Shown here: in pieces, positions 12,001-15,000 of the stretch
How positions within the stretch are numbered: position 1 is the stretch's first letter
Layout of the letters: every line of letters begins with the position of its first letter
Program-made: the position numbers
Source of the DNA: Escherichia coli
GTDB taxonomy: Bacteria; Pseudomonadota; Gammaproteobacteria; Enterobacterales; Enterobacteriaceae
Length of the DNA stretch: 64,000 nucleotides
Assembly: GCF_009931435.1 (NCBI RefSeq)
Contig: NZ_CP043414.1
Direction: 5' to 3' (one strand)

Positions 12001-15000
12001 GTTGTGCGTGTTTCTGGGCCTGTTCAGAGCGGTTTTCTCCCCGGATATGTGAATACACCGCGCTGGTTGCCTGTGGTGGCAGTGCGTGGATCATCAGCGA
12101 CACAAACGCCGGAAGGTTCCAGCCGACAGGTGCAGCAACGGAGAGTACCGGAAATGATGAAGGGAACAGGGTTGCCACCCGGGCTGTAACCGTCGCCAGT
12201 GAGAGCGCCTGCTGACGGGACGGGCATTTTTCTGTGGCATTCCATTCTTCAGCAGGAAACACGCGATCGGCATGGCTGAGAACAAACAGAAAACGCGAGG
12301 GATCTGCGCCTTCATTCAGTAAAAACTGATGCATGGTAATGTCGGCGGCATACGCGCGTTCATCTGCCCGCAGGATCCAGATAATCAAATCCACTTCCGG
12401 CAGTAACTGACGGTAAAGCGCCCGGTATTCCTGATCATGTTGCGGCGTCTCTCCAATGCCGGGCAGATCGACCAGCGTCATTCTGCGTTCACCGATCTGC
12501 AGGGTAAGACGATGAGCCTGGCGGGTGCAGCCGTTCAGGGGATGCGTGGCACAGATATGGGACTGAAAAATAGCATTACACAGGCTACTTTTGCCGGTGC
12601 CGGATTTACCCATAATGCCAATCACGGGTTCGTAATGAATAACGCTGTGGAGATGTTCAAGAATTTTCTGACGAATTTCTTCAGGAAGAAACGTCAGATA
12701 TGATTTCACTTGTGCGGAGAGGGAAGAATGGCTGAATGACATACCGGTATCCTGTTGATTTCACTGAACCGGATCACACTAATCCGGTTTATCATTCAGG
12801 TAATATGGGCGTGAAAAATGATGGAATGTCTGAATTACGGACATTATTGTTAAAGTGTAATGGAGTATGGCGTCAGTTTTTCAGAACGGGAACTAATGAC
12901 ATACTGCTGTTTCAGGAGATGAGAGGATGACCGGACGTAAAAACAAATGTGTCAGAAAAAATTGTAACAATCAGGTTTTCTCAGTAAAAATGGCAGTGGA
13001 GAAAAGACTGTGCAGAAAACATTATGAGAGGTTTTGTGAGCTCAAAAAAAGAAGAGAGCAAAATCCTGTTCACAGATTAAATGAAGCATTGCCAAGAAAG
13101 GTAGAAGGCCCAAAAAGAAAGAGGAAATTAGTAAAAGAAAGAGAAATCATTAACAGCAGGACGAAACATAAACAGGAGCAGGGACCATCTCTGGCTGAAC
13201 TTAATAAAAAAGTTCGTGAGATACTGAAAACCCCGGCATGGAGAACGCTGGAAACGAGAATTCGAAGAAACGGTATCACATTTAATTCAAAAGCAGAGTT
13301 AGATGCGCTTTCTGAACTTTATGCAATTTATTCATGGGTTTCATATTGCAAACGGTGCGATAATTATTCTGTGTGGTTTTTGAATTGTCCGGATGTAAAT
13401 ATAAATCTTCATGTGTGCGAATGCCGGTCTTCTGAAAGCGATTGTTATCTGCCATCCCGTTTTATTATTCTTCCAGCTCCATTAAGGCAAAAAGTAAAAA
13501 GAAAATACTCTGCTAATTCGTCTGGGGTATCAGGACATAATGATTCAAAAAGTCTTTATAAGACAGTTTTGTCTGTTTGTGGTGGGAAAAGAGAAACCGA
13601 ATTGTTCTTTTATTCACTGCCAGTAAAGACTAATCATCATCCTTACTGGATTAAAAGTGGTGTGGTTAAAAGATTTCCTCCTGTTTTTGGTTTGTTGTTT
13701 TATGAACAGGAAAGATTAACAGGAGGTGTTTTTCGTTATGTGTTGATAAGGTTTTATAATACTTTTAAGGAGAATTTGTTTTTTGTTGAGATTGTCTCGT
13801 GCTGTTTTCTTGTTGAGCTTTTTCATGATATTGATTCGTTTTTTATAAATCAACGATTAAGTAAGCTGGAAAGTTTTATAGATAAGTGGAGGGAGGGTAA
13901 AGAAATCTGGATAAAAGCATATCTACAACTGATACATAATACATTGGGAATAACTGAAACAGAAAAACTCGTCAATCTATATAATTCATTTTTTACTGAT
14001 AAAGTGGTTATCTGGGATGAATCAGTAAAAAAAGTTAAGTGGATTTATGAGAAATAGTACCATTTAACTGAAAGCCACCATAACGTCTTTTTGACTACAT
14101 CCATGATAATGAGTCTCATTTTGATTTCGTTTTTTTGTTCCGGGAAATTTTCCGAACATCAGTGATAATGAGGGTTTTGTTGTTTTTGTTTCTGCAATGT
14201 TTGAGGGCTGTTCCTGGAGATGATTCGTTGCTTGTGAGCAAGAGGTGGTCCGCTTTACTGGACAAGTTTTGCATTTGTTGAGTGGTGAAATGGAAGTAAA
14301 AAGAGCCCCTTTCTGGCAATGACTGAAAAAGTCAGTAGCGTGTGACAGTAAAAACTAACATAAAGTGATTATCGTATGATTATGACAATGACTTATAACT
14401 TTTATGAAAAGAACAACAGAAACTATGAAACCATAGCAGATTCCTGAGACCATGTTTTTTGAGGTAGAGAAAATAATTCAAGAGTAAACCAGTTTGTTTT
14501 TTGATCAGTAAAGAACCATGCCTGATGTGAAAACGGGTAATCAACATTCAGTCTGCATGAGTGTCTGAGAATGTTGCTAATGTCGGTATGATACTATATA
14601 CACATATTTTACTAAGTATTTTTACTAAGCATTTCAGTAAGTGTTATACACGTATTTTCTACTAAGTGTTTTACCAGACATACACGTATTTTCATAAACA
14701 CTTCTACAAGTGTTTTCATTAAGTATTGTTATACACATTGCTTTGTCTGACACACATCCGGTTTAGTAAATCTTTACGTTAGCTAAAATCAGTTTAAAGC
14801 TGCTACAAAGCAATCTTTCCTGTTTAAGCAATCAAGATGACATTCTGTTTTTCTGAAGTTACGTTTAACCTTTTCTGAGTTTTTGTGTTTTTGGTCGTTA
14901 ACCGGAGAAAAGTATCTTTACGTAAAAACGCAAATCCGACTGAGATAACCTGGCGTGATTTACGGAGTGCTTACGACGATTTAGTTAAATGGTTTTATGG

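What the first reader, a model, noticed from the sequence alone, without database searches (positions are those of the whole stretch)
12927..14057. AT-rich 376-aa Cys-rich protein in the cargo position of the CP4-like element
In CP4-type elements the interval between the YeeP-type GTPase and the Gp2-like/AlpA genes is where variable cargo, often defence genes, is carried. Here it holds a single protein with two Cys/His clusters and no family I can recognise, on the opposite strand to the flanking backbone genes.
Basis: inference. Interest (0 to 1): 0.45.

Follow-up and report, generated by a model that had tools for sequence, protein, structure and literature searches.

The report
Variable zinc-knuckle gene of CP4-like islands
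The 376-aa open reading frame is a real, conserved gene of unknown function, and it is not random cargo: it is one of only four alternative gene sets that fill a fixed position in the backbone of a mobile island found in about a third of E. coli genomes.

Summary
The ORF (12927-14057, +, 376 aa, 34.5% GC) is real. It is intact in 462 of 5426 complete E. coli genomes, identical in CFT073, and under purifying selection (dN/dS 0.23-0.32).

It matches nothing in Pfam, NCBIfam, PADLOC or PDB sequences. A fair AlphaFold model (pLDDT 79) finds no known fold, only uncharacterised Enterobacterales proteins.

The protein has three parts:
- a conserved N-terminal C-x4-C-x15-C-x2-H zinc knuckle (dN/dS 0.08);
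- a Lys/Arg-rich disordered linker;
- a fast-diverging helical domain of about 290 aa.

The "cargo" reading is only partly right. Homologues at 28-37% identity in Salmonella, Klebsiella, Citrobacter and Atlantibacter sit in the same place: divergent from the YfjP-type GTPase operon and upstream of Gp2-like Rep and AlpA. In E. coli, four classes from two families account for about 2468 of 2504 such slots. These are this 376-aa form, a 407-aa form, a zinc-less short form paired with a ribbon-helix-helix protein, and that second family alone. All lie behind a conserved promoter-like region with a palindrome. The island's real cargo lies beyond AlpA.

My best guess (0.35) is a polymorphic, island-specific regulatory or sensor protein. 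A dedicated defence or anti-defence effector is the main rival (0.3).

The parts
12927..14057 (+). CDS of the 376-aa protein (= WP_001339473.1, 'hypothetical protein'), slot class A-376
   Evidence: identical protein in CFT073. Present in 462 of 5426 genomes. dN/dS 0.23-0.32.
12927..13091 (+). N-terminal zinc-knuckle module (aa 1-55). Proposed ligands are C8, C13, C29 and H32 (nt 12948-13022), in the motif K-C-V-R-K-x-C-x15-(R)LC-x-KHY-x-RF
   Evidence: Invariant C/C/C/H, including in the duplicated copies of the Salmonella 465-468-aa forms. About 50% identity across lineages and dN/dS 0.08. The model gives a beta-hairpin plus helix with pLDDT 86-89. Zinc binding itself is inferred.
13092..13190 (+). 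Lys/Arg-rich linker (aa 56-88), predicted disordered
   Evidence: pLDDT 37-57, 12 K/R in 33 residues, pI 11.1.
13191..14054 (+). Helical domain of about 290 aa with no known fold. It is the fast-diverging part (14-44% identity to relatives). The few conserved residues are W105, Y135, P183, R263, E288 and Y352-N353-x-x-F356
13347..13445 (+). It is allele-specific and not a conserved metal site
   Evidence: Column contents; alignment.
12743..12926 (.). Divergent intergenic region between the GTPase start and the ORF start. The first ~80-90 nt are backbone, conserved across slot classes and genera. The cassette-specific sequence begins at about 12820-12830
   Evidence: Alignment of 10 loci.
12769..12787 (.). 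Palindrome CCGGAT-N7-ATCCGG, a candidate operator. Salmonella has CCGGGAA-N6-TTCCCGG, and CCGG-N11/12-CCG(G) is kept in Klebsiella
   Evidence: It is independent of slot class. Its function is inferred.
12801..12806 (+). TAATAT, a -10-like box inside the conserved GGTAATAT(G/A)G, placed 30-45 nt upstream of the slot gene's start codon in the nine loci that carry one, except this allele (121 nt here); in the tenth locus (L024, family B only) it precedes only a 64-aa ORF
   Evidence: The generic promoter scan did not flag it because the -35 is poor. Inference only.
14058..14462 (.). Non-coding tail that travels with this allele class. It holds no conserved small ORF
   Evidence: Homology boundaries. 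Conservation profile and ORF check.
14463..15578 (.). ORF-free, T-rich region upstream of the Gp2-like gene. It is backbone, conserved in about 1877 E. coli genomes whatever the slot class
14598..14693 (+). Iteron-like array: ATACAC(G/A)TATTTT at 14598, 14646 and 14680, interleaved with TACTAAGT(G/A)TTTT. It marks the right border of the variable slot
   Evidence: Homology breakpoints fall on the copies.
11858..12742 (-). YfjP-type (dynamin-like) GTPase, first gene of the divergent backbone operon. The operon continues with the WYL-HTH regulator, DUF932, antirestriction, RadC, CbeA/CbtA and DUF4942 genes
15579..16310 (+). Inovirus Gp2 / YagK-YfjJ family (HUH Rep-like) gene, on the same strand as the ORF
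17335..17568 (+). AlpA-family gene, same strand

Best explanation
The gene encodes a basic three-part protein: a conserved N-terminal CCCH zinc knuckle, a Lys/Arg-rich flexible linker, and a helical domain of about 290 aa with no known fold. It belongs to an unnamed, very divergent family that is confined to one place in the backbone of CP4/P4-like tRNA-integrating islands of Enterobacteriaceae. That place is immediately downstream of a conserved promoter-like region with a palindrome, divergent from the GTPase/antirestriction/CbtA operon, and upstream of the Rep-like (Gp2) and AlpA genes.

The most likely role is a polymorphic, island-specific control protein. In this model the zinc knuckle and basic linker hold it on nucleic acid, or on a conserved partner. 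The variable helical domain supplies specificity, for example recognition of a host, helper-phage or plasmid factor. Together they would set when the island's two divergent backbone modules are expressed.

Shown here: the gene is real and under constraint, the domain layout, the fixed position, the closed four-class polymorphism, and the confinement to this element type.

Inferred: zinc binding, nucleic-acid binding, promoter use, and any regulatory action.
For: - Real and constrained: the gene is intact in 462 genomes. dN/dS is 0.23-0.32 overall and 0.08 in the zinc module. The chance probability of such an ORF is about 1e-14.
- Fixed position across genera despite 28-37% identity.
- Near-complete occupancy by a closed set of classes. 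The counts are 515 + 1069 + ~812 + 72 = ~2468 places against 2504 left junctions. This is what one expects of a needed backbone function rather than optional cargo.
- Never seen outside this element. There is no phage hit, and the only 'plasmid' hit is a circular copy of a whole island.
- A conserved upstream palindrome and TAATAT box lie in front of whichever class is present.
- The N-terminal 88 residues hold 28 K/R and have pI above 10.
- The alternative class that lacks the zinc knuckle is paired with a protein carrying a C-terminal ribbon-helix-helix region. That region matches the CopB/RepA2-like model with E = 7e-5.
- No catalytic family or motif was found.
Against: - There is no direct evidence of DNA or RNA binding or of regulation.
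- The nearest solved CCCH site of similar layout is ClpG N1 (C6/C9/C31/H34 followed by LCDDHY; PDB 8P66). It binds peptides and aggregates, not DNA, and the match is not significant (E = 1.1).
- The palindrome and the iteron array are the same whatever the slot class, so no class-specific operator was found.
- One class (72 places) has no family-A protein at all.
- Two elements of the same class share a genome about as often as chance predicts (36% against 34%; my arithmetic). This argues against an immunity-type repressor.
- The gene sits beside a WYL regulator, and its island type carries defence payloads. Both fit a defence role as well.
Confidence: 0.35

Rival explanations
1. It is a stand-alone anti-phage defence (or anti-defence) effector kept in a dedicated expression slot of the island. 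The few deep allele classes would be maintained by balancing selection from phages.
For: - The gene is AT-rich and swapped between near-identical backbones.
- This island type is described as a carrier of defence payloads (PMC12458937).
- K-12 CP4-57 has AbpAB and RnlAB between yfjJ and yfjP.
- The adjacent operon encodes a WYL-domain regulator and a dynamin-like GTPase with a weak, partial LeoBC hit at E = 2e-6.
- The variable domain next to a conserved module resembles sensor/anchor layouts.
Against: - No PADLOC hit for this or any other slot protein.
- Only four classes from two families, with about 99% occupancy and no unrelated systems.
- The family never occurs in phages, plasmids or other island types.
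- dN/dS is below 1 in every segment, so there is no arms-race signal at this resolution.
- There is no enzymatic or membrane domain.
- PADLOC 2.0 dates from 2023, so newer systems were not tested.
Confidence: 0.3
2. It is an accessory replication, transfer or maintenance factor of the excised island. It would work with the Gp2-like HUH Rep protein on the adjacent ORF-free, iteron-bearing region.
For: - It is on the same strand as, and directly upstream of, the 1.5-kb ORF-free AT-rich region with the iteron array and the Rep-like gene.
- A 62-kb circular record consists of a whole island of this type.
- The protein is basic.
Against: - The iterons and the Rep-upstream region stay the same while the slot class changes.
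- In the Klebsiella/Citrobacter/Atlantibacter version AlpA follows after only about 400 bp, with no long spacer.
- There is no similarity to known initiators, relaxosome or partition proteins.
Confidence: 0.1
3. It is a spurious ORF, a decaying gene or a degraded transposase.
For: It is AT-rich, annotated only as 'hypothetical protein', and has no family match.
Against: - Chance probability about 1e-14.
- Full length in 458 genomes.
- dN/dS 0.23-0.32.
- Full-length homologues down to 28% identity in four other genera.
- A confident AlphaFold model.
- No transposase hit.
Confidence: 0.02

Closest known systems
Master repressors of phage-inducible chromosomal islands (SaPI Stl and PICI regulators). 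This comparison is from my own knowledge and was not tested by homology.
   Same: A highly divergent, island-specific gene sits at a divergent control region of a tRNA- or att-integrated island that also encodes an AlpA-type factor and a replication initiator. It combines a small conserved binding module with a variable domain.
   Different: - There is no sequence or fold similarity, and no HTH.
- No class-specific operator was found.
- Some slot classes lack the zinc module or the whole family.
- Induction by a helper is unproven for these islands.
ClpG/ClpK N1 zinc domain (PDB 8P66; J Biol Chem 2023, PMC10641755)
   Same: The ligand order is the same, C..C...C-x2-H, with the last two ligands at the start of a helix and an 'LC(D/R)(D/K)HY' motif.
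   Different: - The spacing differs (C-x2-C-x21 against C-x4-C-x15).
- The match has E = 1.1.
- N1 binds aggregated proteins at the head of an AAA+ disaggregase, and nothing of that kind follows here.
Cys/His zinc fingers attached to phage HNH endonucleases (phrog_5351, and UniProt names on two structural relatives)
   Same: The zinc motif of family relatives gives weak hits: the 407-aa class form to phrog_5351, E = 0.12, and phrog_6230, of unknown function, to the second motif copy of a Salmonella form, E = 0.0036. One AFDB relative is labelled 'HNH endonuclease'.
   Different: There is no HNH/His-Me catalytic domain in any member. The hits are below significance.
The yfjJ-yfjP interval of K-12 prophage CP4-57 (abpAB, yfjM, rnlAB)
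   Same: It is the interval between a YagK/YfjJ (Gp2-like) gene and a YfjP GTPase gene in a P4-like island, and it holds non-backbone genes.
   Different: - The gene orientation differs: in CP4-57 alpA, yfjJ and yfjP all read the same way.
- The contents are unrelated, known defence and TA genes.
- YfjH is not a family member.
Defence hotspots of P2/P4-like elements (Rousset et al. 2022; from my own knowledge)
   Same: A variable, AT-rich segment is flanked by conserved backbone, which allows cassette exchange by homologous recombination.
   Different: Those hotspots hold dozens of unrelated systems that also occur elsewhere. Here four classes from two families fill about 99% of slots and occur nowhere else.

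Membership tests
Known anti-phage defence systems (PADLOC-DB 2.0) | Significant match to a model of a known or candidate defence protein | tested here: not met
   0 families at E <= 1 for this protein and for 9 other slot proteins or homologues.
Open defence/cargo hotspot of a mobile element | Many unrelated gene sets at the same position, and some empty sites | tested here: not met
   Four classes from two families sum to about 2468 places, against 2504 left junctions.
Open defence/cargo hotspot of a mobile element | The cargo gene also occurs in other kinds of mobile elements | tested here: not met
   All contexts examined are the same backbone. None in phages. The single 'plasmid' is a circular island.
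Transposase / IS remnant | Match to a transposase family | tested here: not met
   No Pfam or NCBIfam hit at E <= 10 or E <= 1 respectively.
HNH / His-Me finger endonucleases | HNH catalytic motif or domain | tested here: not met
   No Pfam HNH hit in any of 19 members. Only the zinc motif of the 407-aa class form gives a weak PHROG HNH hit (phrog_5351, E = 0.12).
CCCH zinc knuckle (structural zinc site) | Four invariant ligands with knuckle-plus-helix geometry | tested here: met
   C8, C13, C29 and H32 are invariant in 10 motif copies. One Klebsiella cluster has C13S. The model is confident.
CCCH zinc knuckle (structural zinc site) | Zinc actually bound | not testable with these tools
   Needs ICP-MS or a PAR assay on purified protein and on C8A/H32A mutants.
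P2 Ogr / P4 Delta zinc-finger activators | Ogr_Delta domain (C-x2-C-x22-C-x4-C, as I recall it) | tested here: not met
   No Pfam hit. The ligand pattern here is C-x4-C-x15-C-x2-H.
Island master repressor / sensor (Stl-like), as a way of working | Divergent placement at the control region of the island's backbone operons | tested here: met
   The ORF starts 184 nt from the divergent GTPase start, and 93-106 nt in the other slot classes and genera.
Island master repressor / sensor (Stl-like), as a way of working | Operators that change together with the protein class | tested here: not met
   The palindrome and iterons are class-independent. The class-linked flanks show only weak two-copy repeats.
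Island master repressor / sensor (Stl-like), as a way of working | DNA binding, and derepression by a helper-encoded protein | not testable with these tools
   Needs EMSA or ChIP, and induction experiments.

The most novel reading that the evidence does not exclude
The slot is the specificity locus of a very common but poorly understood class of defence-island-carrying satellites. Under this reading each of the four classes is a different sensor: zinc-knuckle family A, the zinc-less short form plus an RHH protein, or the RHH family alone. Each sensor would recognise a distinct helper phage or conjugative element and release the island's Rep/AlpA and anti-restriction modules. That would be a functional analogue of SaPI Stl built on an unknown fold.
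Probability: 0.12. Interest if true: 0.7.

Novelty: new variant of a known kind. Interest (0 to 1): 0.42.

Why it matters
Islands with this backbone occur in about 1870 of 5426 complete E. coli genomes, often in several copies. They carry virulence, resistance and phage-defence payloads, yet how they are induced and moved is not known.

A fixed, always-occupied backbone position holds a small set of mutually unrecognisable alleles behind one conserved promoter-like region. That is the pattern expected of a specificity or control determinant, so it is a concrete handle for experiments on what triggers these islands.

At the least, the work defines two unnamed protein families, present in thousands of genomes, that annotation pipelines call 'hypothetical'. 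It also corrects the idea that this interval is a general cargo site.

Tried and rejected
**Homology searches that gave nothing**
- Pfam on the protein and on all 19 family members.
- NCBIfam and PADLOC.
- PHROGs gave only weak motif-level hits.
- PDB sequence searches with the single protein, the family profile and the zinc-motif profile.

**Fold searches on the AlphaFold model**
- Foldseek against AFDB50: only uncharacterised Enterobacterales relatives.
- Foldseek against BFVD viral structures: nothing.

**Other checks**
- Rfam over 11-20 kb gave only chance-level hits.
- The generic promoter/terminator scan found fewer sites than in shuffles.
- K-12 YfjH was tested as a possible relative and rejected.
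- Family A against family B: no relation by hhalign.
- The second Cys cluster as a metal site was rejected for lack of conservation.
- An immunity-type exclusion model was rejected because same-class co-residence is about random (36% against 34%).
- The small ORFs in the 14058-14550 tail are not conserved in the 79%-identical allele's locus.
- The 64-aa ORF at 12736-12930, annotated in some genomes, overlies the conserved promoter-like region and is not coding-conserved across genera.
- The genome-contig scan returned only three loci because a single strict peptide pattern was used.
- The literature search by protein accession found nothing.
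Full report

An ATG-initiated ORF runs from 12927 to 14057 on the + strand and encodes 376 aa. Its GC content is 0.345. The neighbouring GTPase, Gp2-like, AlpA, DUF932 and WYL genes have 0.50-0.57. With this composition the chance of 376 stop-free codons is about 7e-15, and the other five frames of the same stretch contain 17-40 stops.

The protein has 13 Cys and 9 His, and its pI is 9.7. The window matches the selC-associated island of E. coli FORC 064, where the product is WP_001339473.1, 'hypothetical protein'. CFT073 encodes the identical protein, with three synonymous differences.

One detail of the finding needs correcting. The ORF is opposite in strand to the GTPase operon on its left. 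It is on the same strand as the Gp2-like and AlpA genes on its right.

**2. Is it a functional gene?**

The ORF DNA is present in 462 of 5426 complete E. coli genomes (515 places). It is full length in 458 of them, at 96.6-100% identity, and always annotated as a single CDS in the rows shown.

| Comparison | dN/dS |
|---|---|
| Window or CFT073 allele vs O157:H7 86-24 allele | 0.23-0.28 |
| Window vs a 79%-identical allele, whole gene | 0.32 |
| same pair, aa 1-55 | 0.08 |
| same pair, rest of the protein | 0.24-0.51 |
| same pair, flanking GTPase, Gp2 and DUF932 genes | 0.12-0.23 |

The gene is therefore under purifying selection, somewhat relaxed outside the N-terminus. There is no arms-race signal at this resolution.

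**3. What does the protein look like?**

No Pfam, NCBIfam, PADLOC or PDB-sequence match was found for the protein or for a 19-member family profile.

An AlphaFold2 model built on the family alignment has mean pLDDT 79 and pTM 0.69. It shows three parts:
- a small hairpin-plus-helix module at aa 1-55;
- a disordered stretch at about aa 56-88;
- a mostly helical body at aa 89-376.

The conserved part is the N-terminus. The motif K-C-V-R-K-x-C-x15-RLC-x-KHY-x-RF has invariant C8, C13, C29 and H32. The same C-x4-C-x15-C-x2-H unit occurs twice in the 465-468-aa Salmonella forms. This module keeps about 50% identity across lineages that share only 14-35% elsewhere.

The nearest solved zinc site of the same ligand order is the ClpG/ClpK N1 domain, with ligands C6/C9/C31/H34 followed by LCDDHY. 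That domain binds aggregated proteins. The match is not significant (E = 1.1). PHROG hits to the motif, all from relatives' forms apart from one unknown-function family hit by the ORF's own N-terminus, are also weak, and include an HNH-endonuclease family at E = 0.12.

Nucleic-acid binding is therefore an inference from charge alone: the first 88 residues hold 28 K/R.

**4. Where does the family live?**

Exhaustive and word-indexed protein searches find a small, unnamed family limited to Enterobacteriaceae: E. coli, Salmonella, Klebsiella, Atlantibacter, Citrobacter and Enterobacter.

Every homologue whose contig extended beyond the gene itself occupies the same position, despite 28-37% identity. 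Wherever the contig reaches the neighbours, it is divergent from a YfjP-type GTPase, or from the WYL gene in one short contig. It is on the same strand as, and upstream of, a YagK/YfjJ (Gp2/Rep-like) gene and AlpA.

The family is absent from 50,697 phage records. The one 'plasmid' hit is a 62-kb circular record that consists of a complete island with its integrase and has no replicon typing.

**5. What fills the same interval in other E. coli islands?**

Elements whose flanking genes are nearly identical to the window carry slot proteins that BLASTP can barely align. The flanks are GTPase 93.5-97%, WYL regulator 99-100%, Gp2 85-96% and AlpA 100% identical. I found four classes.

| Class | Content | Places / genomes |
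|---|---|---|
| 1 | The 376-aa form (this ORF) | 515 / 462 |
| 2 | A 407-aa form with the same zinc motif and the same C-terminal YNSxF motif; hhalign probability 99.6% over the full length | 1069 / 976 |
| 3 | A 310-320-aa form that lacks the zinc module (hhalign probability 91%, E = 1e-6). It is always convergent with, and overlaps by 4 nt, a 262-284-aa protein of an unrelated 'family B' | about 812 / 743 |
| 4 | A 339-aa family-B protein alone, on the - strand | 72 / 72 |

The C-terminus of family B is ribbon-helix-helix-like. It matches the CopB/RepA2 NCBIfam model at E = 7e-5.

The conserved left junction (the GTPase 5' end plus the upstream region) occurs at 2504 places in 1869 genomes. 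The four classes add up to about 2468 places, or about 99% (my addition). This assumes each class copy sits at such a junction, as in all loci inspected.

All classes are AT-rich (0.33-0.45 GC), and none hits PADLOC.

Two elements of the same class share a genome in about 36% of multi-element cases. Random pairing would give 34%. This is my arithmetic on the counts above and ignores phylogenetic structure. It gives no sign of mutual exclusion.

**6. The surroundings**

*Divergent intergenic region.* This region is conserved across classes and across genera. It contains a palindrome, CCGGAT-N7-ATCCGG at 12769-12787. Salmonella has CCGGGAA-N6-TTCCCGG, and the CCGG-N11/12-CCG(G) spacing is kept. 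A GGTAATAT(G/A)G box follows at 12799-12808. The class-specific sequence starts about 10-25 nt after that box. A slot gene on the + strand, of whichever class, therefore sits behind the same promoter-like region. That it is a promoter and an operator is my inference. The generic scan did not call it.

*Downstream of the ORF.* About 405 nt of non-coding sequence travels with this allele class (14058-14462). Next comes a ~1.1-kb ORF-free region upstream of the Gp2-like gene, conserved in about 1877 genomes. At its left edge is an iteron-like array, ATACAC(G/A)TATTTT at 14598, 14646 and 14680. The array is present in 2-4 copies in every class examined, and the megablast homology breakpoints fall on the copies. 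Because these repeats do not change with the slot class, they are unlikely to be the class-specific target of the slot protein.

*Cargo.* The island's recognisable cargo lies further right. It includes a dGTPase-family gene, thymidylate synthase, a MazG-like gene, a type I R-M system with a helicase and an AAA ATPase, and then mercury-resistance and Tn3-family transposons in the 60-68% GC part of the window. A 2025 preprint describes this island architecture: a tRNA integrase, an AlpA-like excisionase, an HUH Rep-like initiator, a RadC/ArdB/CbtA 'moron' module at the far end, and the payload in between. It does not mention the slot gene.

**7. Interpretation**

The gene is not portable cargo. 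Four features point to a backbone function that comes in a few ancient, interchangeable versions:
- the fixed position;
- about 99% occupancy by a closed set of classes;
- confinement to one element type;
- a shared upstream control region.

Its layout is a small conserved binding module, a basic tether and a large variable helical domain with no catalytic signature. The zinc-less short form pairs with an RHH protein. Both fit a regulatory or sensor role best. I give that 0.35.

A dedicated defence or anti-defence effector held in an expression slot remains a serious rival (0.3). The points in its favour are the AT-rich swapped cassette, the adjacent WYL regulator, the dynamin-like GTPase with a weak LeoBC hit, and the defence genes in the analogous K-12 interval. 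A replication or transfer accessory role gets 0.1. A spurious ORF is excluded. The rest of the probability is 'something else'.

**8. Novelty and score**

Neither slot family has a name, a Pfam entry, a solved relative or a paper that I could find. The kind of thing, an accessory or control gene of an integrative element, is known. The particular family, its fold and the closed four-class polymorphism are not described.

I rate it a new variant of a known kind, with interest 0.42. It is useful to people working on island and satellite mobilisation, but without functional evidence it is not yet surprising.

Noticed in passing
window 14598-14693, and the whole of 14463-15578: An iteron-like array, ATACAC(G/A)TATTTT x3 interleaved with TACTAAGT(G/A)TTTT, lies at the left edge of a ~1.1-kb ORF-free, T-rich region upstream of the Gp2/Rep-like gene. 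The region is conserved in about 1877 E. coli genomes. Copy number varies from 2 to 4 between elements, and homology breakpoints fall on the copies. It is a candidate origin, oriT or Rep-binding site.
   Followed up: partly
window 12769-12808: The palindrome CCGGAT-N7-ATCCGG is followed by a conserved GGTAATATGG box between the divergent GTPase and slot genes. Salmonella keeps a palindrome with different arms (CCGGGAA-N6-TTCCCGG). It may be the operator of the island's conserved WYL-HTH regulator (10975-11655).
   Followed up: partly
L012:5677-6465(-), L013:5455-6264(-), L022:3310-4164(-), L024:3210-4229(-): A second unnamed family ('family B', 262-339 aa) has a C-terminal ribbon-helix-helix-like region matching a CopB/RepA2-like model at E = 7e-5. 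It shares the slot, either alone or convergent with and overlapping by 4 nt a zinc-less short form of the ORF's family. It has no Pfam or PDB match.
   Followed up: partly
L028 (CP057032.1, 62,375-bp circular 'plasmid' of E. coli RHB40-C01): The record is an entire island of this type, including the tyrosine integrase next to the DUF4942 end. It has three Gp2-like genes, two of them with AlpA, and no plasmid replicon typing. It may be an excised circular form captured by assembly.
   Followed up: no
window 11858-12742 (-): The YfjP-type GTPase gives a weak, partial hit to the PADLOC LeoBC model of a dynamin-like defence protein (E = 2e-6, residues 181-283).
   Followed up: no
window 12736-12930 (+): A 64-aa ORF starts inside the GTPase start region, spans the conserved promoter-like region and ends in an ATGA overlap with the start of the 376-aa ORF. 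A version is annotated in some genomes (WP_001304548.1). It is not coding-conserved across genera and is probably spurious.
   Followed up: partly
window 18384-20053 and 21140-22393: The island carries its own ProQ/FinO-family remnant (18384-18725, -) and an H-NS paralogue (19619-20053, +). These lie next to an AT-rich block with an intact 417-aa dGTPase-family gene, which is frameshifted in the otherwise near-identical FORC 064 island.
   Followed up: no
window ~41600-64000: This part has 60-68% GC. It matches, at 100% identity, a composite of Tn3-family and Tn21-like elements found widely on E. coli chromosomes and plasmids (merA, a TnsB-like gene, IS1326, TnAs1). It is absent at this place in FORC 064, which has Tn10 tet(B) instead.
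   Followed up: no
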